Made by a program: the position numbers and the translations under genes. The notes beneath the pieces are model-generated. The model made no database searches, had not been told where the DNA came from, and saw only the letters and a list, made by a program, of their open reading frames with translations. Positions 7,430 through 26,936 of a stretch of 64,000 nucleotides of DNA are shown here, piece after piece. The first letter of the stretch is position 1. Each line of letters starts with the position of its first letter. Source of the stretch: Longimicrobiales bacterium (GTDB lineage: Bacteria; Gemmatimonadota; Gemmatimonadetes; Longimicrobiales; Gaopeijiaceae). The DNA is taken from NCBI GenBank assembly GCA_965116905.1, contig OZ220732.1:2432001-2496000 (forward strand), read 5' to 3'.

Positions 7430-7434
7430 GGAGG

Positions 7435-7469
7435 TTGAATGACCCGTCATGAGTGTGTATAATACACAC
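7435..7469 (+). promoter_or_regulatory. sigma70 promoter (TTGAAT-17 bp-TATAAT) overlapped by the palindromic operator GTGTGTAT-A-ATACACAC
   Basis: -35 at 7435-7440, -10 at 7458-7463, perfect 8-bp inverted repeat at 7453-7469, ATG at 7471. Confidence 0.8.
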
Positions 7470-7470
7470 C

Positions 7471-10559: not shown

Positions 10560-12092
10560 CTACCTGCCGGAAAGCTCCGCCTCCAGATCATCCAGGGCCA
10601 CCGGCCAGCGCGGGTGCCGCGCGGCCCTGATCCGCTCCAGCGGCCCCGCCACGACGGTGACGAAGGCCGACAGATCCAGGTATTCCTGCGCGACCACCTT
10701 GACGTCCTCGGCGGTGACGGCGCCGACAGCCGCGGGCCACGCCATCAGGTGCGCCGTGCCCCCGCGCCGCACGTGTTCCACCGCCAACGTTTCGCTGGCC
10801 GTGGTCGCCAGCTCCAGCGACCGCCGCCAGACCGCGTCCACCAGCCAGCCCTTCGCGCGCGTGACTTCGGCTTCACTCACCGGTTCGTCCGGATCGTACA
10901 TCCGCGCGATCTCGTCGAGGCTGTAGCGGACGAGGGGCGCGACGGCCTCCGGGCGTCCACCCGTGCGCACGACCAGCAGGCCGCTGCCGGACCCGGTGAC
11001 CGGAATCTCGAAGTCGTCGCGGTTGGCCAGGCCGCGTATCTCCCGCGCGGCGATGTTCAGGCGCTCGGCGAGAATGAAGCGGAGCGCGGACAGCGCGGCC
11101 CGATCCGATTCCGGGACGGCACCCACGGCCCGGCCGAGGGCGATCCACCCCTCCAGACTCGGAACGTCGACGCCGTGGAATCGGCTGGAGGCCCCGCCCG
11201 ATGCGGTCGAGGCAGCGTCCGGTGTCGGCTCGACCACGTTGGCCTCCGCTGCCGGCCCACCGCTGGCGGCCCACCCGCGGGTCGCCGACTCCAGGACCTC
11301 CTCGACCTCGTCGCGCGAGACCGCCCCGCCGATTCCGAACACCACGCGGTCCGCCGTCAGACTCCTGGCGGCCAGCGCTCGCACCGCCGCGGGCGAGACC
11401 ATTGTCCCCGGCTGCGGGGGCGCCAGGGGATGCCCGCCCAGCCGCCGCTCGAGTTCCACCTTGGGACGAAAGCCGTTTCCCCCGATCCCGGCCATTGGCA
11501 TGGTGTAGCCGGGACCCGCGCGGTGCGCCCGGATCGCCGCGGCATCCAGGTCGGGATTCCGCACGAGCTCCACGAGAAGCTCCAGTCCCGCCCGCCAGTC
11601 TTCCGGAAGCACGTGGATGGAGATGTGCGTGACGTCGAGGGTCTCGACAGTGCTCAGCGAGGTGCCCAACTCGGCGAGGCGGAGCGAGAGCGGGCCGCTG
11701 GCGCCAGCCGGACCTCGGGTGGTCAACAGTTGCGTCACAAGCGCCGACGCACCCGCCTCGCCCTCGGCCTCGTGGAGTCGGCCGAGCGGAAGCGCGGCTG
11801 TGATACGCACCAGCGGATCGGCGGTCCCCCCGGGCACGATATAGGCCCTCACGCCGCCCGACGTCTCGAAAAGGGCTGCTTCCGGGTCGGGCGGTGTGAA
11901 CGCGGCGGGTCCCAGGGCGAGCTCGCTCGGGTCCGCCCAGCCGTGCTCGAAGATCGGCCGCGAGTGGCCAGGGAGCGTGTCGCCGGCCCTGTCACATCCG
12001 CCAGGCGCGCCCACCACGAGCACCATTGCTGCCACCCCAAATCGGGTGACCGGCCTCCGTCGCGAGCCTCTGACGCGCCTCCGCGCACTCAT
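10560..12092 (-). CDS. M16 (insulinase/pitrilysin) family non-catalytic subunit
   Basis: M16 features (LAERLNIAAREIRGLA, VTAEDVKVVAQEYL) but no HxxEH. ATGA overlap with the upstream M16 gene. Confidence 0.75.
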   Translation of the reverse strand: MSARRRVRGSRRRPVTRFGVAAMVLVVGAPGGCDRAGDTLPGHSRPIFEHGWADPSELALGPAAFTPPDPEAALFETSGGVRAYIVPGGTADPLVRITAALPLGRLHEAEGEAGASALVTQLLTTRGPAGASGPLSLRLAELGTSLSTVETLDVTHISIHVLPEDWRAGLELLVELVRNPDLDAAAIRAHRAGPGYTMPMAGIGGNGFRPKVELERRLGGHPLAPPQPGTMVSPAAVRALAARSLTADRVVFGIGGAVSRDEVEEVLESATRGWAASGGPAAEANVVEPTPDAASTASGGASSRFHGVDVPSLEGWIALGRAVGAVPESDRAALSALRFILAERLNIAAREIRGLANRDDFEIPVTGSGSGLLVVRTGGRPEAVAPLVRYSLDEIARMYDPDEPVSEAEVTRAKGWLVDAVWRRSLELATTASETLAVEHVRRGGTAHLMAWPAAVGAVTAEDVKVVAQEYLDLSAFVTVVAGPLERIRAARHPRWPVALDDLEAELSGR

Positions 12093-13753
12093 CGTCCGTC
12101 TCCCGGCAGGTCCGCCCACAGGAAGTCCAGCCAGCTGGGCCCGCTTCCCTCGGGAGGTTCGGCGCGCGCGGTGGCGATGACCCGGTTGGAGGGCACGAAG
12201 TACGTCGCCGCGACCCGCTGCACGTCCGCCACTGTCGCCGCGTCCCTCGCCGCGATGAGGTTGGGCAGGACCCTCCAGTTGTTCATCGCAAAGTGATGCC
12301 CGATCAGGAACGCGAGTTCCTGGGGATTGTCGAGGAACTCCGCCCACTCCACGCGCAGCCGTTTGCGTGCCCGCTCCAGCGCACCGGCGTCGATACGCCC
12401 CTCGCGCAGGTCGTCCACAACCTCCAGCAGCGCCCGCTCGACCGCCGCCAGATCACCGTCACCCGCCGCCTGCGCCACCAGGTTGAATGCGCCGGGCGAC
12501 CCGAAGCGGTGCGTATGGATCACGCGAAAGTCCGCCGACACCGCAGCCGACAAGCCACTCGCCGAAACCGCCTGGCCGGCCATGCCGTGCGGCCCGCCCA
12601 GCAGGGCGGCAACCAGGTCCAGCACCGGCCGATCCGGATGCCCCATCCCCGGAATCCGATACCGCACGTGCACCTGCGGCGACAGCGGCTCCGTCCAGTC
12701 GAGCCGAACCGATCCGCCCGGCACCTGCTCGGCCTCGACGTCCAGATCGGCGGGCGGCTCGGGCCCCCTCGGCAGCGCGCCGAAATACCGTTCCGCGAGC
12801 GGCACCACCTCGTCCATCGTCATGTCGCCCACCAGAACCAGCGTCGCGTTGTTGGGCACGAAGTAGTCGTCGTAGATCCGCCACATCGCGGCCCGCGTGA
12901 AGTTCGCAAAGTCCGGCAGATGCCCGCCGTCCGGCGTGTAGACCGGGTGCGACTGCGCCGTGACACCGTCGATCGCCTCGTTGAAGCGCGTCTGCGGCCG
13001 ACTCAGTCCCCCGAGCACCTGTTCCAGCACCGTGAACCGCTGCGCCTCCCACCCTCGCAGGACCGCGTTGACCATCCGGTCCGCCTCGAACCGGAAGAAG
13101 AGTTCCATGTGCTCCGGCGGGAGCGCCATGTTCATCTCCATGTAGTCCTGCTCGGTGCTGGCCGGAACCGGGTCCGTGTGGCGCACGTACCCGCCGTGCT
13201 CCATGTACCACTTGTAGGTGGTCCAGAAGTCCCGGTACTCGTTGTCCTGGTCCTCGAGCTCGTACAGCCGCGCCCTCAAGGCCTGCATCTCGGGGGTCTC
13301 CGGCCACCCCAGCTCATCGAAGAAGACACCCCGCTCCCGAAGCAGATTGCGGTCCCGGTTCCGCACCGCGATCAGCTCCTGCTCCGTGTCATGGATCTCG
13401 CGCAGGATCGGCAGCTCGGCGGCCAGGTCGCGGGTGCCGATCGTCGTCGTCCCCTGGTGGATCACGTGCTCCAGAAAGTGAACGATGCCGTGCAGCCCCT
13501 CGGGCTCCAGCATCGACCCGACCCGAAACCACAGGTTGGCGGCCACGCGAGGCGCCCGGTGATCCTCCACGAGCACGATCGTGAAGCCGTTGTCGAGCAC
13601 ATGCTCCTGGACCTGGAGCGATGGGGAAGGGGATTGGGGAATGAGAGCGGCGTCCGGCGGGCCCGCGGACGGCCCCGCCTCCGAATCAGGCGCCGTTGGC
13701 CACGCGAGGGCAGCGATCATGCCCACGGAAAGGATGAAGAGCAGGATCCTCAT
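12089..13753 (-). CDS. M16B zinc peptidase-family protein (HFLEH), secreted
   Basis: Signal peptide MRILLFILSVG, LDNGFTI, RVGS..E..GLHGIVHFLEHVI, YFVPNNATLVLVGD. Confidence 0.88.
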   Translation of the reverse strand: MRILLFILSVGMIAALAWPTAPDSEAGPSAGPPDAALIPQSPSPSLQVQEHVLDNGFTIVLVEDHRAPRVAANLWFRVGSMLEPEGLHGIVHFLEHVIHQGTTTIGTRDLAAELPILREIHDTEQELIAVRNRDRNLLRERGVFFDELGWPETPEMQALRARLYELEDQDNEYRDFWTTYKWYMEHGGYVRHTDPVPASTEQDYMEMNMALPPEHMELFFRFEADRMVNAVLRGWEAQRFTVLEQVLGGLSRPQTRFNEAIDGVTAQSHPVYTPDGGHLPDFANFTRAAMWRIYDDYFVPNNATLVLVGDMTMDEVVPLAERYFGALPRGPEPPADLDVEAEQVPGGSVRLDWTEPLSPQVHVRYRIPGMGHPDRPVLDLVAALLGGPHGMAGQAVSASGLSAAVSADFRVIHTHRFGSPGAFNLVAQAAGDGDLAAVERALLEVVDDLREGRIDAGALERARKRLRVEWAEFLDNPQELAFLIGHHFAMNNWRVLPNLIAARDAATVADVQRVAATYFVPSNRVIATARAEPPEGSGPSWLDFLWADLPGDGR

Positions 13754-13973
13754 AACTGCGGCCCTCCGAATCCCTGGTGACGAACGGTGCTGCCATGCAG
13801 AATGCGGCGCGGTGCTGCGTCGGGCCAGTGGGGGCGGCTGAAATCCGGCCCATTCAGCCATTCGAGCGCCCCTGCGTTCCACCCAACTTGGTCTCTGGTC
13901 CACGCCCCAAGGCCCCGTTCACAGAACCCCGGAGACCAGCCCCTTGCGAAACGTCAGGAATCCAACCCCGTCC

Positions 13974-14003
13974 TTGCCCACGTGTACCGCATGGCGGTAC
14001 GTT
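13974..14003 (+). promoter_or_regulatory. putative higBA promoter (TTGCCC-18-TACGTT) with operator GTACCGC-N3-GCGGTAC
   Basis: Perfect 7-bp inverted repeat at 13984-14000 overlapping the -10. GTG of the higB stub at 14009. Confidence 0.6.
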
Positions 14004-14008
14004 TCGCC

Positions 14009-14086
14009 GTGATCCGATCGCTTCGGCACAGGGGTCTGAAGCGGTTCCATGAGCGCGGAGACGGAGAACTGCCAACATGCCCATGA
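14009..14086 (+). pseudogene. higB: HigB (RelE/ParE) toxin remnant, N-terminal ~18 codons only
   Basis: [18 protein letters not shown] matches the typical HigB start (MIxSFxHKGLKxF.E.G) and then runs straight into the higA RBS. Confidence 0.8.
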
Positions 14087-14385
14087 AGGATCCCCCCCAC
14101 CCCGGACTGAGCATCCTGATAGACTGCTTGGAGCCCTTGGGCCTGACCGTAACCAGGGCATCTGAAATCCTCGGTGTGGCCCGTCATACGCTTTCCCGGG
14201 TTCTCCATGGTCACGCGGCGATTTCGCCGGAGATGGCGATCCGCCTGGAGAAGGCCGGCTGGTCCAACGCCGACTTCTGGATGCGTCGGCAGGCAGCGTA
14301 CGACCTCGCCCAGGCTCGGAAAAACGAGGACCGGATCAAGGTCGAGCGATGCTGGTCGCCTGACGCCCGCCCGGCTAACCGTTAA
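14077..14385 (+). CDS. higA: HigA family antitoxin (HTH)
   Basis: MKDPPHPG...[38 protein letters not shown]...[11 protein letters not shown]. Confidence 0.92.
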
Positions 14386-15391
14386 TCCACGCCCTCCAAG
14401 CCTCGACATCCGTTCCGAAGTCCTCGCCACTGACGGCCCTCAGGAAGTTCACGGCGGGCTCTCGGGTCCGTTCATGCTCGGCCCCGACGTGCGCAAGCAG
14501 CAGGTCCGGGCTCTCGCGTACCAGCTGCCGCGCGAGCTCGGGGTCAACGTCCGTAGCAACCAGGACTTGCAGGATCTCGCGAAACGCCCACGGATTGGTG
14601 CCGTCGAGTAGCGCCGACAAATGAGCGCGGGCCCCGGTCCATTCGACGGGGTCCATCACTGGCGCAACCAGGCTCTCGAACATGATCAGGGCCACCGAGC
14701 TGACCTGGTAGGCGGGATCGACCAGCGAACCGATCAGCGCGTGCCACGACGTGTCGTCGTCCATGAAGTTGCCGAGCACAAGGGTCGCGATCGACCGTGC
14801 CGCCCAGGATGGGTCGCTGGCCAGAACTTCATGGGCGAGGAGGCGGTCTTCCTCGCCGTCCGCACTGTCGATGAGGTCCCACAGTTCATCAACGGTCTCG
14901 GGATCGGCACCCATTCGTGCGGCACGGCGCCCGGCGCGGTCGAAGACGGTATTGAAGAGGCCAGCGCGCAGGTGGCGCGTCTCCGCAGCCGCTCTGAGCA
15001 ACCGAATGTCCTCGCGAGCAACCGTGCTCAGGTCTCGCCAGGTCTCCGGAAGAGTAACCGACTCACTGCCTGGCGCGCGATGCCGGACTCGGGTGCTGTC
15101 CTCCACGCCGATCACAACCGTGTATGAGTCGCGTGCCAGCAGGTTGTGGTAGCTGGTCGCGGTCGCCTCCGCAAATCCCAGTTCGAACCTCATGACGGCG
15201 GCGCAGGCGCTGAAGGGACGGTCGGGATCGAGCTCCTGAATGGCGTCGAACAGCTCCTGGGCGCTCCAGTCCTGCAACCCGATGAACTCGACGGGTCCGT
15301 CGGGTCCGGCAATGACCTGACCGGCGCCTTGCGACGCGGTCACGGTCAGTGCCAGCAACACGCCCACGACCACTCCAGCGACCGCGCGCAT
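14375..15391 (-). CDS. secreted hypothetical protein, possibly helical/HEAT-like repeats
   Basis: Signal peptide and natural composition. Starts 1 nt after the tricorn stop. Confidence 0.7.
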
Positions 15392-15392
15392 C

Positions 15393-18300
15393 CTACATCC
15401 CCCCCGGCCGTCTGGCCCGCACCGGCGGATCCGGCTCCGCCAGGATCTCCACGGCCTCCGTCTCCAGCAGCCGCATCGCCTCGGCCACCGCGGCCTCCAG
15501 CTGCGGATCGCGCCCCGCGATCACGTCGGCCGGGATCTGCCGCACCTCGATGTCGGGCGCGACCCCCTCGTTCTCCACCTTCCACTCGCCGTTCAGGTCG
15601 AAGAAGCCGCCGCGCGGCGCGGTCACCAGGCCGCCGTCGATCAGCGGGGGCACGTCCCAGATCCCGACCAGACCGCCCCACGTCCTTGTTCCCACCAGCG
15701 GGCCGATCCCCCGGAAGCGGAACATGTACGGCAGAAGGTCGCCGCCCGATCCCGCCGCGTCGTTGATGATCATGACCTTGGGGCCCCAGATCCCGGCCCC
15801 GGGCAGCCGGAACGGGGTTCGGTCGCCGGCGGGGTTGTTGAAGTAGCCCATCAGCGGCCGGGCCATCAGGTCGACGATGTAGTCGGCCGCCGAGCCGCCG
15901 CCGTTGTAGCGCTCGTCCACGACCGCGCCGTCGCGGTCCTGCTGCGCGAAGTAGTAGCGGTTGAAGTAGGTGTAGCCGCCCTGCGCCGTGTTGGGGAGCC
16001 AGACGTAGGCGAGCCGGCCGCCTGACATCTCGTCGACCTTGCGGCGGTTGTCCTCGACCCACTCGCGCGACCGCAGCGCGCCCTCGTTGCCCACCGGGAC
16101 GACCTGCACGACCCGTGAGCTCTCGCCGTCCGGCGTCGCGCCCACCCGCAGCGCCACCTGCCGCCCGACCGTGCCCTCGAACAGGCTGTACGGGTTGGTG
16201 GGCGCGCGCAGTTCGACCCCGTCCACCGCGATGATGTAGTCGCCCTCGGCGACATCGGTCCCGGGCGCGCTCAACGGCGATTCCAGCCCCGGGTTCCAGT
16301 TCTCGCCGGTGTAGATGTGGGCGATGCGGTAGCGCCCCGCGTCCTCCTCCAGGTCCGCGCCCAGGAGCCCGACGGGCACGGTCTCGACATCGGGGTTGTC
16401 GCCGCCGAAGACGTACGAGTGCCCGATCGCGACCTCGCCGGCGAGCATGTCGAGGAGGTAGTTCATGTCGGAGCGGTGCGCGACGTGGTCGATCCAGGGC
16501 TCGTACATGCCACGGACGGCAGGCCAGTCGGCACCGTGGACGTTCTCGACGTAGAGGAAGTCGCGCTGGTAGCGCCACGCTTCGCGGAAGAGCTGCCGCC
16601 ACTCCTCGCGCGGGTCCACGCGCATGCGCACCGCCGTGTCGATCGTGCCCTCGCCGACGCTGGGGCTCCCGGAGGTCCCGACCACGCCCCACGACGGGCC
16701 GCTCTGGTAGAGCAGCTTCTGCCCGTCCGCCGAGACGCTGAACTGCTGGACCGGCGTCAGGAAGGGGGTGGCCTCGTCGTCATCGAGCGAATAGCGGTAG
16801 AGCGTGCCGGCGCCGGGACCCGTCAGGGCCGCCATGGCCCCCGCGCCGCCCGCGCCCGGTCCGGTGAAGAAGACGACCCCTTCGGGCCCCGCCGCGAGAG
16901 CCGAGTAGTTGCGCGCCGGGATCCCGGCCGCGAGGATGCGCTGCCCCATCCCTTCGAAGTCGATGCGGATGTCGTCCCCGCCGGTGTCGTCCGCGTCGCC
17001 GCCGCCCATGTCGCCGCTCTCATCCCCCTCATCCTCGTCCGCCGTGTCGTTTGCCGCCTCCTCGTCGCTCACGGGCAGGAACGGAGAGGGCTCATCGGCC
17101 TGGAGCACGGCCAGGTAGAGCGCGCGGCGCACCGGACGCTCGTAGGAGGTCATGTCGAGCCAGCCGCTGCTCAGCGCGTAGTCGGTGCTGGCCAGGAAGT
17201 AGAGGTACTTGCCGCCCGCGTCCCAGGCGGGGGCGAGCGCGTCGGAGAGGCCGTCGGTGAGCTGGCGGGTGTTGCCGTCGGCGAGCGAGTGGACCATGAC
17301 GACGTGGAACTGGCTGTCGAGGCGCTTGGCGTAGGCCAGCCAGCGGGAGTCGGGGGACCATACGGGATCGATGGTGCGCAGCGGATGCGCGTACCGGTCG
17401 GTGTCGACGAGGGTGACGTCGCCGCTCGCGACCTCGACGCGCCAGAGGTTGAGGTCGGTGTCGGTGAAGGCGAGGTGTTCGGAGTCGGGGGACCAGGTGG
17501 GGGTGAAGAAGAAGGTGGGGTTCGGAATGACGATTTCGCGGGGCTCGCCCTGGCCGTCCTGCGAGCCGATCATGAGCCGGTACTCGCCCGACGCATCCGA
17601 GAACCAGGAGACGTGGCGGCCGTCGGGGGACCACGCGGGGCTGCGGTCGGCGACCCCGGAGGTGCGCGTCAGGTTGCGCCAGTCGCCGTCCTCGGTGGGC
17701 ACGGTGAAGATGTCGCCGCGGGCCTCGAAGAGCGCGCGCACGCCGGTGGGCGAGAGCGACGCGTTCTGCAGGGCGCCGCCGACGTCCTCCCAGTGGGCGC
17801 GCAGCCAGGGGAAATCGCCCCGCACGGTGATGTCGACCTGCTCGGCCGTGCCGCTGGCCGGGTCGAGAAGATGGATGTAGCCGCCCTGCTCGTAGACGAC
17901 CGCGCCGCCGCCCGCGTCGAGGCCCTTGACGTCGAAATCGGCGTGCCGGGTGACCTGCCGCACGGTCTGCGAGCCGGTGTCGTAGGCCCAGATGTTGGTC
18001 GCCCAGTCGCGGTCGGAGAGGAAATACACCTCGCTGCCGAGCCAGACCGGATCAAGGTCGTTGCTGTCCTCCCACGGGACCTCCTCGAGCGCCCAGTCAT
18101 CCGTGTCGACGATCCACACCGGGTTGACCTGGCCGCCGCGGTAGCCCCGCCACTCGGCGTCGTTGAGCTGCCGCTGCTGGTACGCGAAGCGCGAGCCGTC
18201 GGCGGAGAAATCGCCCGTCAGCCCGCGCGGAATCGGCATTTCCTCGGGCAGGCTGCCGTCGAGGCCGACCGTGAAGAACCGGGGGTACGCGATCGGCGCG

Positions 18301-18686
18301 CTGGTGCGCCCGGAGTTGAAGACGACGCGGCCGCCGTCGTGCGTCCAGCCGACGACCTGATCCGAGCCGGGATGCCAGGTAAGGCGTTTTGGGGTCCCTC
18401 CTTTGGAGGGCAGGACGTAGACATCGGTATTGCCGTCGTACTGGGCGCTGAAGGCGATGTGCCGCCCGTCAGGGGAGAAGTGAGGGTCGGTTTCCTGGCC
18501 CTGGAAGGTGGTGAGGCGCATGGCCTCCCCGCCGGCCCGGTCCACGATCCACAGGTCGTTGGCGTACGCGAACGCGATGTGCGTGGCGCTGACCGTGGGC
18601 TGGCGCAGGAGCCGAGTGGACTCCTGGGCGGTGGCGGGGGGCGCGGCGAGGGCGGCGGCCGTGGCGATGGCGAGTAGGAAAGTCAC
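15393..18686 (-). CDS. tricorn protease homolog (S41 family, PDZ)
   Basis: LLRQP..S..HIAFAY, PD40-like SPDG repeats, AIGHSY, VDERYNGGG, catalytic AGSGGD and GTRTWGG. GTG start with GGAG RBS. Confidence 0.95.
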   Translation of the reverse strand: MTFLLAIATAAALAAPPATAQESTRLLRQPTVSATHIAFAYANDLWIVDRAGGEAMRLTTFQGQETDPHFSPDGRHIAFSAQYDGNTDVYVLPSKGGTPKRLTWHPGSDQVVGWTHDGGRVVFNSGRTSAPIAYPRFFTVGLDGSLPEEMPIPRGLTGDFSADGSRFAYQQRQLNDAEWRGYRGGQVNPVWIVDTDDWALEEVPWEDSNDLDPVWLGSEVYFLSDRDWATNIWAYDTGSQTVRQVTRHADFDVKGLDAGGGAVVYEQGGYIHLLDPASGTAEQVDITVRGDFPWLRAHWEDVGGALQNASLSPTGVRALFEARGDIFTVPTEDGDWRNLTRTSGVADRSPAWSPDGRHVSWFSDASGEYRLMIGSQDGQGEPREIVIPNPTFFFTPTWSPDSEHLAFTDTDLNLWRVEVASGDVTLVDTDRYAHPLRTIDPVWSPDSRWLAYAKRLDSQFHVVMVHSLADGNTRQLTDGLSDALAPAWDAGGKYLYFLASTDYALSSGWLDMTSYERPVRRALYLAVLQADEPSPFLPVSDEEAANDTADEDEGDESGDMGGGDADDTGGDDIRIDFEGMGQRILAAGIPARNYSALAAGPEGVVFFTGPGAGGAGAMAALTGPGAGTLYRYSLDDDEATPFLTPVQQFSVSADGQKLLYQSGPSWGVVGTSGSPSVGEGTIDTAVRMRVDPREEWRQLFREAWRYQRDFLYVENVHGADWPAVRGMYEPWIDHVAHRSDMNYLLDMLAGEVAIGHSYVFGGDNPDVETVPVGLLGADLEEDAGRYRIAHIYTGENWNPGLESPLSAPGTDVAEGDYIIAVDGVELRAPTNPYSLFEGTVGRQVALRVGATPDGESSRVVQVVPVGNEGALRSREWVEDNRRKVDEMSGGRLAYVWLPNTAQGGYTYFNRYYFAQQDRDGAVVDERYNGGGSAADYIVDLMARPLMGYFNNPAGDRTPFRLPGAGIWGPKVMIINDAAGSGGDLLPYMFRFRGIGPLVGTRTWGGLVGIWDVPPLIDGGLVTAPRGGFFDLNGEWKVENEGVAPDIEVRQIPADVIAGRDPQLEAAVAEAMRLLETEAVEILAEPDPPVRARRPGGM

Positions 18687-18889
18687 TTCAGGTTCTCCGT
18701 TGGGCTGGCGTTTCGCTTCGGGTGGTGTCCCGCACTCTCTGTGTGCGGCGGGCCATGGACAATAGTTGCTTGCGACGGCCACCGCAGTTTGGCGCCGCGC
18801 CGAGTGCCCACGACGATAGGCTCCGGCAGGCGATGGCAAAAATTGGCAAAGTGGTCCGCGACGGCTCCCGCGACCCTCGCTTGCGCCCC

Positions 18890-18943
18890 GGCCTGCCGTG
18901 GCCTACCCGTGGGCCTACCGTGGCCTACCGTAGGGGCCTACCG
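18890..18943. repeat. five degenerate tandem copies of GGCCTACCGT
   Basis: Read directly; the last copy contains the stop codon of the CocE/NonD gene. Confidence 0.8.
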
Positions 18944-20803
18944 TTCCCTTCGGATGACGGGCAGCACGACGTGCGACGCCCTCTCCCCCCCGTGGTACAC
19001 GCGCTGGGTCGCCACCACCGCCTCGTCGGCGCTCACCGTCGCTACATTGTCGGCGCCCGTGTTCAGGTTGGGCAGGTAGTACGGGTACCAACTCGACGAG
19101 ATTTCGATTCCGATACGGTGGCCCTCGAGGAAGAGGTTCCCGGTGCCTCGCCAGAAGCGCAGCGTGTATTCGTAGACCTCGTCCGGCTCGATGGTGCTGA
19201 GTTGCGCGCTGTTGAAGCGTCCCTCGTTGTCGGGATCGCGATTGCGTGCCCGCATGACGGCCTCGGTAAGGAGCGCCGAGTACCCGTCGGGACCGATGTC
19301 GACGAGACGCACGAACCAGTCCGTGTCGCGGGCGGAAGTCGACGCATGGAACTTGATCTCGATCGGGCCGGTGACCTCGACGGCCTCTTCGAGCGGCGGC
19401 GTGCGGAAGACGAGCACTTCCTCGCCCGCCGCCGAGGCGCGGGTGTCGAGCGCGCCGTCGATGTGACCGTTCTTGTTGGGCCAGGTGTCGAAGGGGTCGC
19501 GGGTGGGGCTGAGGGGGTCGTAGACGTAGGTGTCGTGGCCCTCGTCGGCCGGCGGTGAGGTGCTGAGGAGGCCGTCGCCGTCGGACGAGTTGGCGCCGGT
19601 GGCACTGGTCAGGTAGTAGTTGGTCCACTCGGTCTGGGGCAGGGGCCAGTCTTCCTCGGCGTACCACCTGTTCTCGCCCATGACGAAGACGTGGACAGGC
19701 GGGTCGTTCTCGACGCCGTTGTCCTCGCCCTTGAGGAAGTGGTCGAACCAGCGGACGACGTAGCCGTCCACGTCGATGACCGCGTCGGGGCCGTAGTCGA
19801 TGCCGCCGGAGGACTGCGTGTTGATGCCGTGTACCCAGGGCCCGATGATCATGCTGGGCCGCCGGGCCTCGGGTGTTGCGCCGTGCTCCTTCATCCCCAG
19901 GTAGTTCATCGGCGACCCCGGGTAGTTGGCGTCGAACCACCCCGTGAACGACAGCGATGGCACGGTGACGCGGGAGTACGATTCCGGAGTCTGGTAGGCG
20001 ATGCCCTGCCAAAGCGGCGCGGTCGAGAGGTTGCTGCGGTACCAGTCCTCGAACCAGGGTCCCGTCCGAAGTCCCCGCGACTCGTTGATCTCGATGTACG
20101 GCGTGTGCGGCGGATCCTGGCGGTTCTCCGACCAGCCCAGGTATCCGCCCGCGCCGGCGATCTGCTGGGTGCGGCCGGACAGCATGGCTGCCCAGTCGAG
20201 CATCCAGCCGCCCACGAGGACGCCGTTCTGGTACGGCAGGTTCTCGAAGTGATCGGGCGGTGCCACCTTGGGTGCGATGGCGGCCAGGTGGGGCGGCGCA
20301 GTGCTGGCTGTCCACCACTGCGTCCACCCCAGGTACGACCCGCCGATCATGCCCACCCTGCCGGTGCACCACGGCTGCGCGGCGATCCACTCCACCAGGT
20401 CGTAGCCGTCCGTCTTGTGGAGCGCGTTGAAGGGCCTCCACTCGCCCTCCGAGTCGTAGCGTCCACGCACGTCCGCCGCGACGACCGTGTAGCCCCGCGC
20501 GGCGAACCACTCGGCACCGGAACGCGATCCGTTGTTGTCGTAGGGGGTCGAAGTCAGGATCCCGGGCACCGGTCCATCCGCCCCCGCCGGAGCGTAGATG
20601 TCGACGGACAGGCGCACGCCGTCCCGCATGGGCACGAGCACGCCCCGGGTGACCTCGACGTCGTAGCTGGCCGCAGAGTAGTCGCCGGCGTCCGGAGCCT
20701 GGGAGCCCGCAGGGCTGGCTGGCGCCTGCGTCGCGTTTTCGCAGGCGGCCGCGGCAAGAAGAACTGCTATCGTCGGGAGGTGGATATTCTTCCGTATCAT
20801 CAT
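18938..20803 (-). CDS. CocE/NonD family hydrolase (S15 / X-Pro dipeptidyl-peptidase-like), lipoprotein
   Basis: Lipobox AAAAC, VPMRDGVRL, TPY, DVRGRYDSEG, nucleophile GGSYLG, GWFD, IGPWVH, and a PepX-type C-terminal domain. Confidence 0.92.
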   Translation of the reverse strand: MMIRKNIHLPTIAVLLAAAACENATQAPASPAGSQAPDAGDYSAASYDVEVTRGVLVPMRDGVRLSVDIYAPAGADGPVPGILTSTPYDNNGSRSGAEWFAARGYTVVAADVRGRYDSEGEWRPFNALHKTDGYDLVEWIAAQPWCTGRVGMIGGSYLGWTQWWTASTAPPHLAAIAPKVAPPDHFENLPYQNGVLVGGWMLDWAAMLSGRTQQIAGAGGYLGWSENRQDPPHTPYIEINESRGLRTGPWFEDWYRSNLSTAPLWQGIAYQTPESYSRVTVPSLSFTGWFDANYPGSPMNYLGMKEHGATPEARRPSMIIGPWVHGINTQSSGGIDYGPDAVIDVDGYVVRWFDHFLKGEDNGVENDPPVHVFVMGENRWYAEEDWPLPQTEWTNYYLTSATGANSSDGDGLLSTSPPADEGHDTYVYDPLSPTRDPFDTWPNKNGHIDGALDTRASAAGEEVLVFRTPPLEEAVEVTGPIEIKFHASTSARDTDWFVRLVDIGPDGYSALLTEAVMRARNRDPDNEGRFNSAQLSTIEPDEVYEYTLRFWRGTGNLFLEGHRIGIEISSSWYPYYLPNLNTGADNVATVSADEAVVATQRVYHGGERASHVVLPVIRRER

Positions 20804-20816
20804 CGTATTGGTGTTC

Positions 20817-22142
20817 CTACAGGTTCGGGTTCGAGTCCTTTTCCCCGCGCGGGATCTGCATGCAGGTGGTCGTGCCGTACGTGTTGCCGTCGTACGGGTG
20901 GGTCCCCGTCGCGAAGGGCAGGTCGTGGCGCAGGAAGTCGAACAGCCTGCGGCCCTCCAGGTACAGTTCGCGGTAGCGCTCCTCCATGACCTGCGCCATC
21001 ACTTCGGCACGATCGTTCACGTCGGCGGGCTCGTACGGCGGCAGCCCCGCGGCCGCATGGAAGCCGTTGATGATGTCCACGGCCGTCTGGCCGAGTTCGA
21101 GCTCCGCGATGATGAGTTGCGCCTCGGCAGAGTTCGCGATCGCGATGGGGCTCGTCCACGCCGGGTACTTGTGAATCAGGCGCAGCGGCGAGCCGTCCTG
21201 CCCGATGCCCGAAAGCGTGCTTTCCACGCGCGGGTCGACCACGCCGCCGAACATCAGATTCTCGCCGTCGGCGGTGGGCTGGCCGTTCTCGTCGTTGAAT
21301 TCCGGCGAGATGAACCCATCCACGTGGTTGTGGTGGTAGATCCGGTTGTAGCGGTAGAGGTCCGCCGCCGAGTAGTTGGCGTCGAAGCGGAAACCCTCCG
21401 GCACCGCCGAGGCGTCGGACATGGCTCCCGAATTGTCGCCGAGGAACAGCCGCACCCCGGCGCGCCGGATCTGGGCCGCCATCGCCAGATCGGTCCGTCC
21501 CGCCGCCTGGGCGAGCGACATGGCCTCGCCCAGCGCCGACTCGGCGCTCTGCAGCATCTCGGTCTTCGACATGAGGGGTCCGACATCGATGGTCATCTCG
21601 CAGAACGCCTCGCCGAGAATGGCGCGCGAGAACGCACCATAGGTGGCCACGGTGGCGATCTTCTCGGCCCGGCCGGGCACGTCGCCGTCGCCCCACTCCT
21701 CGAAACGGGCCCGTGACGACTCGGCCGACACGCGTGCTTTCTGCACGGGTGTAAACACCCCGTAGCCGAACGCGGTGTTGCACAGCCTGACATCCCGGTC
21801 CTGTCCGATCTTGCGGTGATCCCACTCCGTCATCACGAGCCAGCCGGAACTGTGCCTCAGTTCGTCGGTCAACTGTCCGCTGGCCGCCACGAACTGGCTG
21901 AACGCGCACTCGAATTCGCCGATCGCGCTGTTCACCAGCACATCGGCGACCGATGGATTCTCCAGGTTTTCAGCGGCGACCTTGGTGGGCAGATCCACCT
22001 GCAGGAGGTCCTCGCACGCCGAGTTGAGGGTGGCGAGCATGAGCGCCGTCACGATTGGCATGAGGCGCGATCTGCCCGCCGGCATCCGGGACCGTACCGA
22101 TCCGCGCCGCCGGCGAGCCCCGTTGTTCATATGGGTCAACAT
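20817..22142 (-). CDS. RagB/SusD family nutrient-uptake lipoprotein
   Basis: Lipobox LNSAC, EAQLIIAE, EERYRELYLEGRRLFDFLR, IPRGEKDSNPNL. Directly downstream of SusC. Confidence 0.88.
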   Translation of the reverse strand: MLTHMNNGARRRRGSVRSRMPAGRSRLMPIVTALMLATLNSACEDLLQVDLPTKVAAENLENPSVADVLVNSAIGEFECAFSQFVAASGQLTDELRHSSGWLVMTEWDHRKIGQDRDVRLCNTAFGYGVFTPVQKARVSAESSRARFEEWGDGDVPGRAEKIATVATYGAFSRAILGEAFCEMTIDVGPLMSKTEMLQSAESALGEAMSLAQAAGRTDLAMAAQIRRAGVRLFLGDNSGAMSDASAVPEGFRFDANYSAADLYRYNRIYHHNHVDGFISPEFNDENGQPTADGENLMFGGVVDPRVESTLSGIGQDGSPLRLIHKYPAWTSPIAIANSAEAQLIIAELELGQTAVDIINGFHAAAGLPPYEPADVNDRAEVMAQVMEERYRELYLEGRRLFDFLRHDLPFATGTHPYDGNTYGTTTCMQIPRGEKDSNPNL

Positions 22143-22175
22143 CTTGATATCTCTCCGTTTCCGTGCGGGGGTCGG

Positions 22176-25100
22176 TCAGTAGTTGAGCCGCAGGGTCACC
22201 CCCACGGTGGTTGCGGGCGGCATCGACGTCTGGTGGTAGGCTCCGCCTTCCCGGGCGGCGAACCACTGCCGCGTGAGCTCGACATCGATCTCCCTGCGTC
22301 CGAACGTGCCGGATTGCGCTTCCCAGAGGTTGAAGAGGTTGCGCGCCGCGATGGTCAGCGACCCGCCGGAGCTCCCTGCCAGCGAGGCGATGTCCTCGGA
22401 AAGCGTGTACGAGAGCGACAGTTCGCGCAGCTTGGCGAGTCCGCCCTTCAGCACCCCTGCCTGGACCCAGTTGCCCACGATTTCGCTCATCGCTGCGAGC
22501 CTCGCGTCCTCGCGCTCCAGGATCTGCCGCGAGTTCTGGAAGAGCAGGTGGGATGCGGCCAGGTCGCCGCTGATCTTTGTGTAACCGCCGGAGAAGTCGA
22601 CGAGCGCGAAGAGGCGGAAGTTCTGCATGAAGCGCAGCGATGTGTTGACGCCGCCGTACCAGGTGGGCACCGATGGCCCGCGGTACACCGGCTGGGCCAT
22701 CGAACACGGCACGGTGCCGCCGCCCTGCTCGGGAGTGGCCTCGCACTGGTCGTTGACGATGTTGCCGTTGGCGTCGAAGTCCGCCGAGATCACGTTCTCG
22801 ACGAAGATGCCGCCGATCGGCAATCCCTCCTGGTGCCTCTGGCCGAAGAGGAAGATCGTGGGCAGCCCGCCCAGATCGACGACTTCGCTGTTGTTGGTTG
22901 CATAGTTGAAGCCGATGTCCCAGTCCAGGAGGCCGCTCCGTACCAGCGTCGCGGTCCCCTCGATCTCGATTCCGCGGTTGTTGAGCTGTCCGACATTCAC
23001 GAACTGGGTGCCCGCGAATCCGCTGGACGGCGACACCGGCCGCGCGACGATCGCGTCCTTGGTGTTTTTGTTGTAGAAGGTGAATCCCAGCCCGATGCGG
23101 TCGTTCATCAGGCTGGCGTCGAATCCGACCTCGAGTTCCTCGCCCACTTCCGGCTGGAGGTCCGGATTGCCCACCGCGTCGGTGGTCAGGCCGGGCTGGT
23201 CACCGCCGGCCGTGATCGGCGCATACAGCCGGCGAGCCGCGAAGACATCCGGCTGTCGGCCGGCCCGTCCCCAGGCCGCCCGGAGTTTCAGGTTGTCGAC
23301 GAACGACGCGTTGAAGAATGCCTCTTCGCTCACGACCCACGAACCGCTGATCTTCGGGTACAGGACGAAGTCGTAGTTCGTGCCGAAGGCGCTGTTGTCG
23401 TCGCCCCGCATGGCGCCGGTCAGGAACAGGCGATTGCCCCAGCTCAGCCGTTCCTGGATGTAGACGCCCAGCGTCTTGTTCTCGATGAAGTCTTCCCAGC
23501 CGGTCTTGACGGCAGCCGATGACACCGTCCCGGGCCCTGGGGCGGGGAACTGGTCGCCCACCGCGCCGAACTCGTGGGTCCTCTTCACGTAGTACTGGGC
23601 TCCCGCCGAGGTTTCGGACGTGGTTCCCAGGAACGGGAGGTCCACGGTGGCCGTCGCCCCGTAGTCAAAGTTTGCCTGGGTCACGGCGCGGTCCGTGGTC
23701 TCGACGTGCCCGAGGCTCATCGAACCGAAGAAATCCGAGGATCCGATCGGTGACCTCGGCACCATGCGGCCGGAGATCGCGCTCCCGAAGTCGGCACCCC
23801 CGGTCACCCGGTGGACGAGCCAGGGGAATGGGTTGTGGCGAATCGTCGCGCTCGCGATGAGCCGGTCGATCCCCTCCGTGACATCGACTGTTTCCAGTGC
23901 CCACGGGGGCGTCCAGTTCCATCCGCGCCGGCGCTCGTCCTCGGCGGCGGCCGGCGTACCCCAGTAGATCGACGATACGAACTCGACGGGGAAGGGGCCA
24001 CCGCCATTGAAGCGTGATTTGGAGCGCACGAATCCCATGTTGGTCGCGATGCTCAGCTGCTCGTTGGGCGTCAGTTCCAGGTTGGCCCGCGCGGAATACC
24101 GGTTCCGGTGGTTCCAGTCGACGAACCCCTCGTCCCGGTCCATCTGTGCCGACACATAGTACCGGACGAGGTCCGTTCCGCCCCGCGAGGAGATCCCGTA
24201 CGTCTGATCGTGGCCGTAGTTGAACGGGATCCCGTGTCCGAGCGCCTGCTCGGACTTGAGGACCTCGAATTTTCGGACGCCGCTCGGCAGCAGTTCACAG
24301 TTGGGGCATGGGGCGGTCCCCTTGTCGTATACCGCGGGCCAGCGGTCGACGGCATTGGACAGGTAGGAGACTCCCTGACGCACCGTAACCTCCCACTGCG
24401 GTGCGCCCGCGGAGCCTCGTTTCGTGGTGATCTGGATGACGCCGGCCGAAGCTTCGGTGCCGTAGAGCGTTGCGGCGGCGGGACCCTTGATGACCTCGAC
24501 GCTCTCGATCTCCTCCGGATTCAGGTCGTTGAGCCGGCTGACGGCACCGCCGCGCATGGTGCTGTTCCCCTGATCGCTTCCGATGCGCGCGTTCGAGTTG
24601 TTGTCGATGCGCACGCCGTCGACGTAGACAAGCGGCCCGCTGCCCAGGCTCACGCTGCCGATGCCGCGGATCTTGATGGCCCCGCCCGTCCCGACATTGC
24701 CTGGCCCGGACGCCATGTTGAGTCCCGACACGTTGGAACTGAGCAACTCCTGAATCGTGCCTGACTGACCCACCTGCATCGCCTCGGCCATGTTGACCTG
24801 GGCGATCGTGGTCCCGATCGCGCGTGTCTGCGACCCTCCCGCGGTTCCCGTGACGACAATGGCGTCCAGATCGATCGCCGTCTCTTCCAGGTCGATTCGA
24901 ATCGAGCTCCCGGCGGCCACGGTTTCGGTGTGGTCACGATATCCAATCAGGACGACCCGCAGTGTCACCGTCTCTCCTTCGACATCCGTAAACAGGAACC
25001 TGCCGCTGGCATTGGTGACGGTCCCCTGCGCGGTGCCTTCGATCACAACCTGAGCGCCCGCGAGGGGCTGGCCGGTGCGGGCGGAGACGACGAGCCCCGT

Positions 25101-25232
25101 CACCGGTTCCTGGCTCAAGAGCAGCGGTACCGCCTCGACCGCCCAGCCGCCAGGGCCGTTAAGGGAGCTGGCCGGCAAAGCGATGAGGAGTGTCAGACAC
25201 CCCCCCGCCATCATTCTTGCAAGCCATTTCAT
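22176..25232 (-). CDS. SusC/RagA family TonB-dependent receptor
   Basis: Carboxypeptidase-regulatory-like N-domain, LDAIVVTG, DLNPEEIESVEVIKGPAAATLYGTEASAGVIQITTKRG, C-terminal VTLRLNY. GAAGGAG RBS. Confidence 0.95.
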   Translation of the reverse strand: MKWLARMMAGGCLTLLIALPASSLNGPGGWAVEAVPLLLSQEPVTGLVVSARTGQPLAGAQVVIEGTAQGTVTNASGRFLFTDVEGETVTLRVVLIGYRDHTETVAAGSSIRIDLEETAIDLDAIVVTGTAGGSQTRAIGTTIAQVNMAEAMQVGQSGTIQELLSSNVSGLNMASGPGNVGTGGAIKIRGIGSVSLGSGPLVYVDGVRIDNNSNARIGSDQGNSTMRGGAVSRLNDLNPEEIESVEVIKGPAAATLYGTEASAGVIQITTKRGSAGAPQWEVTVRQGVSYLSNAVDRWPAVYDKGTAPCPNCELLPSGVRKFEVLKSEQALGHGIPFNYGHDQTYGISSRGGTDLVRYYVSAQMDRDEGFVDWNHRNRYSARANLELTPNEQLSIATNMGFVRSKSRFNGGGPFPVEFVSSIYWGTPAAAEDERRRGWNWTPPWALETVDVTEGIDRLIASATIRHNPFPWLVHRVTGGADFGSAISGRMVPRSPIGSSDFFGSMSLGHVETTDRAVTQANFDYGATATVDLPFLGTTSETSAGAQYYVKRTHEFGAVGDQFPAPGPGTVSSAAVKTGWEDFIENKTLGVYIQERLSWGNRLFLTGAMRGDDNSAFGTNYDFVLYPKISGSWVVSEEAFFNASFVDNLKLRAAWGRAGRQPDVFAARRLYAPITAGGDQPGLTTDAVGNPDLQPEVGEELEVGFDASLMNDRIGLGFTFYNKNTKDAIVARPVSPSSGFAGTQFVNVGQLNNRGIEIEGTATLVRSGLLDWDIGFNYATNNSEVVDLGGLPTIFLFGQRHQEGLPIGGIFVENVISADFDANGNIVNDQCEATPEQGGGTVPCSMAQPVYRGPSVPTWYGGVNTSLRFMQNFRLFALVDFSGGYTKISGDLAASHLLFQNSRQILEREDARLAAMSEIVGNWVQAGVLKGGLAKLRELSLSYTLSEDIASLAGSSGGSLTIAARNLFNLWEAQSGTFGRREIDVELTRQWFAAREGGAYHQTSMPPATTVGVTLRLNY

Positions 25233-25678: not shown

Positions 25679-26935
25679 ATGAGCGACACGAAGACGGACA
25701 CCCGCAATCACGATTGTTCCGCGATCGACGACGACCCCGGCCCGACAGCTGCGCCGGAATCGGCGGCTGAGGCTTCCGGGCTGATCGTGCCTCCGGCGGC
25801 CGTCGACCGCCGCGGATTCCTCGGCAAGGCCGCCGTGGGGGCCGCCGGCGTGGCAGGCGCGGGCCTCGTCACGGCCTGTGGCGCCGAGGCCGGCGACGCG
25901 ATCGAGGGGGCTCCCGCCGTGCAGACGCAGCAGCGCGTGATGTGGCGGCTGGCTTCGAGCTTCCCCCGTGGCCTGGACGCCATCTACGGCTCGGCCGAGA
26001 TGCTGGGCGAGATCACAGCGTCTCTGACCGGCGGCCGTTTCCAGATCCGCGCGTACCCCGCGGGCGAACTGGTGCCGGGCCTGCAGGTCATGGACGCGGT
26101 CCAGCAGGGCACCGTGCAGGTCGGCCAGAGCACCAGCTACTACTACACGGGCAAGAACCAGGCGCTGGCCTTCGACGCCGGCGTGCCCTTCGGCATGACC
26201 GCGCGCCAGCAGGACGCGTGGCTGAACGAGGGCGGGGGACTGGAGGTGGTCCGCAGCGTCTTCGCCGACTTCAACATCATCTCGTTCCCGGGCGGGAACA
26301 CGGGCGGGCAGATGGGCGGCTGGTTCCGCAGGGAGGTGAATTCGGTCGAGGACCTGCGCGGCCTCAAGATGCGCATTCCCGGACTGGGCGGAGACGTCAT
26401 GGACCGGATGGGCGTCACGGTCCAGGTGCTCGCCGGCGGTGACATCTACCCGGCGCTCGAGCGCGGCGCCATCGACGCCACCGAGTGGGTCGGGCCCTAC
26501 GACGACGAGAAGCTCGGCCTGCACCAGGCCGCGCCCTACTACTACTACCCCGGCTGGTGGGAGCCGTCGGCTTCCGTTTCCTACGAGGTGAACCAGCAGG
26601 CGTGGGACAGCCTTTCCAGCGAATACAAGTCGGTCTTCGAGGTGGCCGCCCAGGCCACCGCGCGCCGGATGCTCTACTACTACGACGCCAGGAATCCGGG
26701 GGCGCTACAGCGCCTCATCGACGGCGGCACGCAGATGCGGTCGTTCTCGGACGACATCATGGTGGAGGCGCGGCGCACGATCGGCGAGATCCTCGAGGAC
26801 TACGCCGGGGCCGACCAGCAGTATCGCGAGGTCTACGACCACTGGCGCAACTTCAAGGAGGCGTCCTACCGCTGGTTCGGCACCGCGGAACTGCGGTTCG
26901 CGAGCTTCGCGTTCCCGGAGGGGACGTCGGCGTAG
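25679..26935 (+). CDS. dctP: TRAP transporter substrate-binding protein (TakP / 2-oxoacid type), Tat signal
   Basis: VDRRGFLG, WRLASSFP, GNTGGQMGGWF, LKMRIPG, DATEWVGPYDD, YYPGWWEP. Confidence 0.92.
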   Translation: MSDTKTDTRNHDCSAIDDDPGPTAAPESAAEASGLIVPPAAVDRRGFLGKAAVGAAGVAGAGLVTACGAEAGDAIEGAPAVQTQQRVMWRLASSFPRGLDAIYGSAEMLGEITASLTGGRFQIRAYPAGELVPGLQVMDAVQQGTVQVGQSTSYYYTGKNQALAFDAGVPFGMTARQQDAWLNEGGGLEVVRSVFADFNIISFPGGNTGGQMGGWFRREVNSVEDLRGLKMRIPGLGGDVMDRMGVTVQVLAGGDIYPALERGAIDATEWVGPYDDEKLGLHQAAPYYYYPGWWEPSASVSYEVNQQAWDSLSSEYKSVFEVAAQATARRMLYYYDARNPGALQRLIDGGTQMRSFSDDIMVEARRTIGEILEDYAGADQQYREVYDHWRNFKEASYRWFGTAELRFASFAFPEGTSA

Positions 26936-26936
26936 T

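What the first reader, a model, noticed from the sequence alone, without database searches (positions are those of the whole stretch)
10560..25232. Candidate peptide-utilisation locus: SusC-SusD-CocE/NonD-tricorn-unknown-M16/M16
Seen: seven co-oriented minus-strand genes, apparently all exported, interrupted only by the higA cassette. Gaps are 33 nt (susC-susD), 13 nt (susD-hydrolase) and 1 nt (tricorn-unknown), with an ATGA overlap in the M16 pair. No glycoside hydrolase is present. Known: SusC/D pairs define Bacteroidota polysaccharide loci, RagAB imports peptides, tricorn makes short peptides, and S15-like enzymes cleave X-Pro or ester bonds. Inference: an outer-membrane peptide or amide capture and degradation system in a non-Bacteroidota lineage. 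This is the best candidate for an undescribed system here. The larger gaps (about 250 and 620 nt) mean it may be several transcription units.
Basis: partly seen in the sequence, partly recalled or inferred. Interest (0 to 1): 0.7.

Follow-up and report, generated by a model that had tools for sequence, protein, structure and literature searches.

The report
Non-sugar SusCD importer paired with hydrolase

Summary
All seven genes, their gaps and the lack of a glycoside hydrolase are confirmed. The seven-gene 'system' is not. In 20 of 52 same-genus genomes with the SusD orthologue, susC-susD-cocE is intact in 20/20, tricorn follows in 13/20, the unknown gene in 4/20; the M16 pair is near in 13/20, no better than background synteny (carB 14/15), and travels with other genes in Acidobacteriota. 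The triad recurs in a 52%-GC Gemmatimonadota contig, and a second SusCD paralogue carries a sister CocE (10/10). The sister tandem SusCD sits behind a DPP IV. The genome has 17 SusC and few glycosidases found, none beside a SusC. The CocE is an intact Ser-Asp-His lipoprotein closest to cocaine esterase and lacks the acid cluster that binds a free alpha-amine, so it is not a plain aminopeptidase. Best reading: import of peptide-like, possibly N-acylated, amides with CocE as dedicated deblocking hydrolase and tricorn as accessory; small non-peptide esters/amides are the main rival. No ligand or expression evidence. Peptidase-flanked SusCD loci are known in Bacteroidota and SusCD is known in Gemmatimonadota (read there as polysaccharide markers): a new variant of a known kind.

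The parts
22176..25232 (-). susC, SusC/RagA-family TonB-dependent transporter, 1018 aa (core)
   Evidence: TIGR04056 406 bits over cut-off 368; plug, barrel, CarbopepD_reg_2; present in 20/20 orthologous loci
20817..22142 (-). susD lid lipoprotein, lipobox Cys codon at 22016 (core)
   Evidence: PF07980; model pLDDT 94.8 with SusD fold, Z up to 31.8
18938..20803 (-). CocE/NonD (S15-type) serine hydrolase lipoprotein, 621 aa; Y88, S156, D291, H325 (core)
   Evidence: TIGR00976 414 bits; best PDB match cocaine esterase E 1e-87 with catalytic residues aligned; directly after susD in 20/20 loci
15393..18686 (-). Tricorn-type S41 protease, 1097 aa, second copy in the genome; H756 and S980 intact (accessory)
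   Evidence: Pfam tricorn domains; alignment to 1k32; orthologue in 15 other genomes, 14 of them directly behind cocE
14375..15391 (-). Exported protein with POTRA-like N-domain and HEAT/ARM solenoid; passenger
   Evidence: No Pfam hit; model pLDDT 90, best Z 7.4 to helical repeats and about 6 to POTRA domains, within the range of common arrangements; Atlas HEAT_2 look-alikes; 4/20 loci, 0-4 scattered copies per genome
14077..14385 (+). higA antitoxin; passenger in a variable insertion site
   Evidence: TIGR02607; 13/20 loci
13991..14086 (+). higB remnant (N-terminal ~18 codons; rest deleted)
   Evidence: matches the start of intact higB in L025, L027, L034, L037, L038
12089..13753 (-). M16B metallopeptidase, catalytic subunit (H92-x-x-E95-H96, E244), with an ~85-residue insertion; separate module
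   Evidence: PF00675/PF05193; best PDB 4nnz and 3amj, gap between query 111 and 198; motifs
10560..12092 (-). M16B partner subunit without HxxEH, lipobox-like Cys33; ATGA overlap with M16a; separate module
   Evidence: PF05193 only; no HxxEH; follows M16a in 44 of the 45 close M16a loci

Best explanation
The conserved unit is susC-susD-cocE, which likely imports peptide-like amides through a TonB-powered SusC barrel capped by the SusD lid and likely opens them with the membrane-anchored CocE serine hydrolase. Shown: the three genes are adjacent, co-oriented and kept together; the catalytic residues are intact; no CAZyme is adjacent. Inferred: SusD/SusC bind an oligomeric non-glycan ligand; CocE, lacking a site for a free alpha-amine, removes an N-terminal acyl or other blocking group (or cleaves an internal amide/ester); the extra tricorn copy, where present, shortens the freed peptide to di/tripeptides in the periplasm; products enter by PTR2/Opp or TRAP carriers encoded elsewhere. 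The unknown gene and higA sit in a variable insertion site, and the M16 pair is an independent heterodimeric peptidase module of the same scavenging island.
For: cocE directly after susD in 20/20 loci; SusCD1 is patchy on a carB tree of 41 genomes (8 changes, 6 forced by well-supported branches) and the CocE orthologue (84-91%) is found only in the SusD1 genomes plus G025. Same order in a 52%-GC contig at 70/72/76% identity (L153), whose SusC cluster holds a Gemmatimonadota-labelled member. A second SusCD (SusD ~36%) has a sister CocE (70-72%) directly behind it in 10/10 loci, followed by a D-aminoacylase-like amidohydrolase in 6/10. In the SusC tree the sister tandem SusCD has a DPP IV directly upstream in 16 of 17 other genomes with it (against 11). 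The 89-96% tricorn orthologue is an extra copy found at this locus in 14 of 15 genomes. M19-like metalloamidohydrolase genes flank or enter the operon in 8/20 loci and follow CocE in 3 of the 27 closest metagenome loci. Genome (97% complete): 17 SusC, 7 TonB_C matches, one PTR2 and one SBP_bac_5; GH13, GH20, GH29 and sulfatase not found, GH3 x3, GH2, GH16 present away from SusC.
Against: No ligand or enzyme data. The SusD model matches glycan- and peptide-binding lids alike (RagB Z 24-26, starch SusD Z 25-26) and SusC matches several solved SusCs alike. CocE is nearer cocaine esterase (E 1e-87) than aminopeptidase AP/AEH types (E 1e-43 to 1e-39). The third CocE clade sits with TRAP, enoyl-CoA hydratase and CoA-transferase genes in 9/9 loci and lacks a nearby SusCD in 4 of them; L153 has an acyl-CoA ligase upstream. 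Most distant CocE relatives have no SusCD (2 of the 27 closest metagenome loci show susC; none of 4 other-family genome loci). SusD and CocE distances are not correlated across 7 lineages (Mantel p 0.19). G025 keeps cocE and tricorn with susCD deleted (L059). Hydrolase enrichment near SusC is weak (19 vs 10.7 expected, p 0.047, seeds partly taken from those neighbourhoods). The M19-like proteins lack the N-terminal H-x-D zinc ligands, like 2i5g, so 'dipeptidase' is not secure. Gene sets at unlinked loci are lost together, so co-occurrence partly reflects lifestyle.
Confidence: 0.55

Rival explanations
1. The triad scavenges a non-peptide ester or amide (an aromatic, alkaloid-like or acylated dissolved compound); CocE cleaves it like cocaine esterase or DEET hydrolase, and the acid is taken up by TRAP and activated as a CoA thioester. 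Tricorn is a bystander of the island.
For: Closest solved relative is cocaine esterase; family includes a DEET amide hydrolase (10.1101/2023.09.27.559296, one passage); no amine-binding acid cluster; CocE3 with TRAP/ECH/CoA-transferase/FAD oxidase in 9/9 loci; acyl-CoA ligase upstream in L153; a TRAP system lies next to susC in the window.
Against: Extra tricorn copy sits directly behind cocE in 14 of 15 genomes that have it; DPP IV marks the sister SusCD; characterised SusCD ligands are oligomers such as ~13-residue peptides (10.1101/755678 passages); the window's TRAP dctP is adjacent in only 4/20 loci.
Confidence: 0.27
2. One reading: all seven genes form one peptide-utilisation system in which the M16 pair and tricorn degrade proteins or peptides imported by SusCD (similar to the TonB-transporter plus M16 protease arrangement FusA/FusC, recalled).
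For: Co-orientation and tight gaps; M16 orthologue found in 17 of 20 SusD1 genomes and 2 of 32 others; within about 17 kb of susD in 13/20.
Against: carB stays within 52 kb in 14 of 15 assessable genomes, so this linkage is background; M16 is on another contig or 2.2 Mb away in G029, G030, G075 and not found in G003, G017, G062; none of the Acidobacteriota-titled M16 loci has susCD within 10 kb, and most have an M28 peptidase, TRAP and SDR instead; the stretch between tricorn and M16a differs in nearly every genome; unknown gene 4/20.
Confidence: 0.1
3. SusCD imports an esterified glycan or glycopeptide; CocE removes the ester group and glycosidases are encoded elsewhere.
For: SusD fold is shared with glycan lids; susCD are treated as polysaccharide-locus markers in this phylum (PMC10469786); some BNR/sortilin and DUF5916 proteins of unknown activity lie near other SusCs.
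Against: No glycoside hydrolase, lyase or sulfatase family among 106 of 125 neighbours of the other SusCs scanned or in the locus clusters scanned; few glycosidases found in the genome, and the GH16/GH3/GH2 cluster has no SusC beside it.
Confidence: 0.08

Closest known systems
RagAB of Porphyromonas gingivalis and BT2263-2264 (peptide-importing SusCD)
   Same: SusC/RagA family barrel plus lipoprotein lid, no adjacent CAZyme, host poor in glycosidases (10.1101/755678 and PMC10132118 passages)
   Different: Different phylum; lid only 11-18% identical in structural alignment; P. gingivalis has one ragAB, this genome has 17 SusC; a dedicated CocE hydrolase is encoded directly behind the lid
Peptidase-containing susCD loci of Bacteroidota (Flavobacterium collinsii TRV642_0198-0209 with S9/S37/M24/M43; Petrimonas mucosa PUL_06 with an S15)
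   Same: susCD with peptidase-family genes, inferred oligopeptide uptake; S15 precedent
   Different: Gemmatimonadota; a single CocE clade repeatedly paired with several SusCD paralogues; tricorn accessory
Gemmatimonadota PULs (PMC10469786)
   Same: susCD pairs widespread in the phylum
   Different: Paper counts susCD as polysaccharide markers; here no CAZyme was found beside any SusC scanned
Cocaine esterase CocE / DEET hydrolase (CocE/NonD family)
   Same: Three-domain S15-type fold, Tyr oxyanion residue, Ser-Asp-His, Trp at the W166 position
   Different: Lipoprotein; W151, F261 and F408 positions differ (numbering and roles recalled); own conserved cap-domain residues D203, R211, D230, R243, D453
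Thermoplasma tricorn protease (1k32)
   Same: Domain order, catalytic Ser and His
   Different: Exported; the R131-R132 anchor is deleted and D936 is Phe in the alignment (roles recalled), so specificity likely differs
Heterodimeric M16B peptidases (Sphingomonas 3amj, Pseudomonas 4nnz)
   Same: Active HxxEH subunit followed by an inactive partner
   Different: ~85-residue insertion after HxxEH; lipoprotein partner; 77-87% identical across phyla

Membership tests
SusC/RagA transporter | TIGR04056 over cut-off with plug and barrel | tested here: met
   406 vs 368 bits; PF07715, PF00593
SusC/RagA transporter | TIGR04057 signature over cut-off | tested here: not met
   40 vs 46.2 bits; a near miss, main model passes
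SusD/RagB lid | Lipoprotein with SusD fold directly after susC | tested here: met
   PF07980; lipobox; Z 31.8, rmsd 3.1 over 348 residues to 3l22
Polysaccharide utilisation locus | CAZyme or sulfatase encoded with susCD | tested here: not met
   none in the window or in scanned clusters of the 20 orthologous loci
RagAB-type peptide transporter | Peptide ligand bound at the SusC/SusD interface | not testable with these tools
   needs pull-down or structure with ligand
RagAB-type peptide transporter | Closer in sequence or fold to RagAB/BT2263-4 than to glycan SusCDs | tested here: inconclusive
   scores to both kinds overlap
CocE/NonD hydrolase | TIGR00976 and GxSYxG nucleophile with Asp and His | tested here: met
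   414 vs 66 bits; S156, D291, H325 aligned to cocaine esterase
Alpha-amino acid ester hydrolase / AP-type aminopeptidase subgroup | Acid cluster (D-x-E-D after the catalytic Asp and G-D-D upstream) that binds the alpha-amine (role recalled) | tested here: not met
   present in 4pf1, 1mpx and two other paralogues of this genome, absent in this protein and in the listed motifs of 120 homologues
Xaa-Pro dipeptidyl-peptidase (PepX) | NCBIfam PRK05371 models over cut-off | tested here: not met
   69 vs 642, 37 vs 711, 24 vs 881 bits
Tricorn protease (S41B) | Propellers, C1, PDZ, S41 with catalytic His and Ser | tested here: met
Heterodimeric M16B peptidase | HxxEH...E subunit coupled to a motif-less partner gene | tested here: met
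Heterodimeric M16B peptidase | Physical heterodimer | not tested
   no complex prediction was run for this pair
TonB transporter plus M16 protease import system (FusA/FusC type, recalled) | M16 gene conserved beside the transporter | tested here: not met
   separable in relatives and tied to other genes in other phyla
Single seven-gene operon | Co-transcription | tested here: inconclusive
   only assembled contigs of one RNA run, DNA-like cover

The most novel reading that the evidence does not exclude
These Gemmatimonadota have turned a whole expanded SusCD clade to non-glycan food: each paralogue is paired with its own deblocking enzyme (CocE clade, DPP IV, D-aminoacylase-like and M19-like amidohydrolases) to import and open N-acylated or D-amino-acid peptides such as bacterial cell-wall fragments and non-ribosomal peptides in the sponge, with the CocE lipoprotein working at the transporter as a peptide counterpart of the glycan utilisome.
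Probability: 0.2. Interest if true: 0.72.

Novelty: new variant of a known kind. Interest (0 to 1): 0.45.

Why it matters
If right, susCD counts in Gemmatimonadota cannot be read as polysaccharide use, and an abundant symbiont lineage has a defined, testable route for taking up modified peptides or amides. The triad also gives a substrate handle on a large uncharacterised CocE/NonD clade (2,623 proteins at E<=1e-100 among the 7,999 scored): the SusD ligand and the CocE substrate should be the same molecule, so one pull-down tests both.

Tried and rejected
Expression: one RNA run held the stretch (share 0.26) and only as contigs; cover is flat across genes and gaps and low over susCD, so it says nothing on co-transcription. 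Promoter/terminator scan: 1 promoter-like and 5 terminator-like sites, equal to shuffles. SusD orthologue outside the genus: not found in the 219 other-genus genomes of the order searched (6 candidates scored per genome); CocE at E<=1e-130 in 4 of 281 other-genus phylum genomes, none beside susCD. Deep SusD-CocE co-divergence: rejected (Mantel p 0.19, trees differ); the three-lineage agreement rests on quick trees and three tips. Catalytic role for the unknown gene: no support. Direct M16a-M16b similarity: none by BLASTP. Earlier-findings look-ups returned nothing. Literature: searches listed no paper on a susC-susD-CocE/NonD locus or on peptide-type SusCD in Gemmatimonadota; subscription papers are mostly outside the library, PMC2808448 was not held, and no supplements were read (Fig. 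S7 and Table S3 of PMC10469786 may bear on this).
Full report
Observation. The seven minus-strand genes, the gaps of 33, 13, 251, 1 and 621 nt and the ATGA overlap are as described. Pfam and NCBIfam confirm SusC (TIGR04056 over cut-off), SusD, CocE/NonD, tricorn, two M16 subunits and HigA, with no family for the 338-aa gene and no glycoside hydrolase. The window lies in a 4.2-Mb, 97%-complete single-contig genome. Titles of the records with the closest M16a and the same neighbours are Longimicrobiales or Gemmatimonadetes MAGs; the one RNA run holding the stretch is labelled sponge metagenome. The host is therefore taken as a likely sponge-associated Gemmatimonadota.

What is conserved. A SusD orthologue (81-90%) was found in 20 of 52 other genomes of the genus; next hits fall to 46% or less. 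All 20 loci were fetched. susC precedes and cocE directly follows susD in 20/20; a full tricorn orthologue is present in 13/20 (one more broken, one contig ends), higA in 13/20, the unknown gene in 4/20, the M16 pair inside the 20-kb stretch in 10/20 and within about 17 kb in 13/20 by the coordinates. As a control, the housekeeping gene carB stays within 52 kb of susD in 14 of the 15 genomes where both share a contig (read), so distant synteny is background here. On a carB tree of 41 of the 53 genomes the locus needs 8 changes (FastTree, one gene), and the CocE orthologue follows it except in G025, which keeps cocE and tricorn around a susD fragment.

The triad recurs. A 52%-GC metagenome contig has susC-susD-cocE at 70/72/76% identity with an acyl-CoA ligase upstream (L153); its SusC cluster includes a Gemmatimonadota-labelled protein. 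A second SusCD paralogue carries a 70-72% CocE directly behind it in all 10 loci found and fetched, then a D-aminoacylase-like amidohydrolase in 6 of 10, and S9, class-A-like serine hydrolase, zincin and alanine racemase genes further on. In the window's own genome those flanks persist but susCD2-cocE2 is missing as a unit. A third CocE clade (62-64%) sits behind TRAP, enoyl-CoA hydratase and CoA-transferase genes in 9 of 9 loci examined, with a divergent SusCD in 5. These SusCs form one clade among the genome's 17 SusC; its remaining own members, a tandem SusCD, have a DPP IV directly upstream in 16 of 17 other genomes that carry it. Three more distant SusD and CocE proteins share exact contig lengths, indirect evidence of further pairs. 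Against strict coupling: SusD and CocE distances do not correlate over 7 lineages (p 0.19), and only 2 of the 27 closest metagenome CocE loci show a susC, though many contigs are short.

The enzymes. CocE has Y88, S156, D291 and H325 and is closest to cocaine esterase (E 1e-87) rather than to alpha-amino acid ester hydrolases or the archaeal aminopeptidase 4pf1 (E 1e-39 to 1e-43). The acid cluster seen in 4pf1, 1mpx and two other paralogues of this genome is absent here and from the motifs listed for 120 homologues (its amine-binding role is recalled). A lipobox is visible in the orthologues inspected, while tandem duplicates and the second clade have cleavable-type signals (by eye). The tricorn keeps H756 and S980 but lacks the equivalents of R131-R132 and D936 (roles recalled); it is an extra copy, 89-96% orthologues occurring in 15 genomes, 14 directly behind cocE, beside a 56-61% copy found across most of the genus. 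M19-like genes flank or enter the operon in 8/20 loci and follow CocE in three unrelated contigs and two own paralogues, but they lack the N-terminal H-x-D ligands (ligands from PMC9305348, passages).

The passengers. The 338-aa protein models confidently as a POTRA-like domain plus a HEAT/ARM solenoid with only generic fold matches and occurs in 0-4 scattered copies per genome. higA is the survivor of a higBA module. M16a has HxxEH and E244 and an ~85-residue insertion; M16b has no motif. The pair is 77-87% identical in Acidobacteriota-titled and other Gemmatimonadota records with no susCD within 10 kb; in most Acidobacteriota-titled loci it follows an M28 peptidase, TRAP and SDR whose 74-89% counterparts lie about 16-24 kb left of M16b in this genome. 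It is unlinked in G029, G030, G075 and not found in G003, G017, G062. It does co-occur with SusD1 (17/20 against 2/32), but so does the unlinked DPP IV locus, which points to a shared scavenging lifestyle.

Genome setting. No glycoside hydrolase family was hit among 106 of the 125 called neighbours of the other SusCs (19 left out as evident housekeeping, mobile or repeated genes). GH13, GH20, GH29 and sulfatase were not found; three GH3, one GH2 and one GH16 lie away from SusC; only these seven families were tested. TonB, PTR2 and an Opp-type binding protein are present. 199 of 3,205 called genes are peptidase or amidohydrolase types, and their excess near SusC is slight and biased by seed choice. 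The SusD model (pLDDT 94.8) fits glycan and peptide lids equally. RNA data were uninformative.

Mechanism. Most likely (0.55) SusCD imports peptide-like amides and the anchored CocE opens or deblocks them, tricorn finishing where present; N-acylated substrates would explain both the missing amine site and the CoA-ligase, CoA-transferase and D-aminoacylase-like neighbours. Every step of binding, cleavage and localisation is inferred. Rivals: small non-peptide ester or amide (0.27), the full seven-gene system (0.10), esterified glycan (0.08).

Known context. Passages were read of PMC10469786 (also section 12; susCD widespread in Gemmatimonadota, treated as PUL markers), 10.1101/755678 (RagAB), PMC10132118 (peptidase PUL), PMC7768429 (S15 in a PUL), PMC7029141 (SusC beside peptidases), PMC8163846 (gene transfer among sponge symbionts), 10.1101/2023.09.27.559296 (DEET hydrolase); passages of 10.1101/2024.06.04.597336, PMC6298971 and PMC6246565 added nothing specific. 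No supplements were read. Ten searches listed no description of this triad. FusA/FusC, M19 preference for L-D dipeptides and residue roles in tricorn, AEH and cocaine esterase are recalled.

Verdict. Real, conserved three-gene core; new variant of a known kind; interest 0.45.

Noticed in passing
window 10560-13753 and G000 2,418,755-2,426,327; L056-L066, L081-L084: M16 pair, M28 peptidase, TRAP dctPQM and an SDR are 74-89% identical between this Gemmatimonadota genome and Acidobacteriota-titled records, where they form one block: likely cross-phylum transfer of a peptidase/TRAP module.
   Followed up: partly
L047, L048: Records titled Gammaproteobacteria carry the M16 pair; L047 has the same neighbours as Gemmatimonadetes loci, so the label or binning may be wrong.
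   Followed up: no
L097 (G000 2,400,780-2,418,735): Second SusCD 25 kb left of the window, divergent from TRAP, enoyl-CoA hydratase, CoA-transferase and a 62% CocE, followed by an FAD/Fe-S oxidase, amidohydrolase and glyoxalase-like gene; TRAP-to-CocE part conserved in 9/9 loci.
   Followed up: partly
L143 (G000 1,163,765-1,175,410): DPP IV directly upstream of a tandem susCD-susCD, conserved in 16 of 17 genomes.
   Followed up: yes
G000 1,225,298-1,242,615: Site where relatives hold susC2-susD2-cocE2; here replaced by two other genes while the flanks persist.
   Followed up: partly
G000 212,334-215,278 and 1,222,273-1,225,296: Two other CocE/NonD paralogues abut M19-like genes; CocE plus M19-like looks like a recurrent pair.
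   Followed up: partly
window 20817-22016: This SusD family keeps four cysteines besides the lipobox (C37, C79, C139, C385 of the mature protein) in 90% or more of 134 sequences, suggesting disulfides.
   Followed up: no
window 25679-28834: TRAP binding protein on + (Tat-like signal) converges on dctM-dctQ on -, an unusual layout.
   Followed up: no
L098:12119-13258 (G000 about 2,427,100-2,428,260): ERG4/ERG24 sterol-reductase family gene in the same island.
   Followed up: no
window 537-2928: Eco57I-like methylase with an unassigned downstream gene, probably a restriction-modification pair.
   Followed up: no
window 5516-7492: The long minus-strand ORF is a methyltransferase (5516-6328) overlapped by a real plus-strand aldo/keto reductase (6476-7429).
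   Followed up: partly
window 18889-18949: Three imperfect 16-nt direct repeats at 22-23 nt spacing just after the cocE stop.
   Followed up: no
G000 3,848,431-3,859,795: GH16/GH3/GH2/MFS/ROK beta-glucan-type cluster without an adjacent SusC, in a genome with 17 SusC.
   Followed up: no
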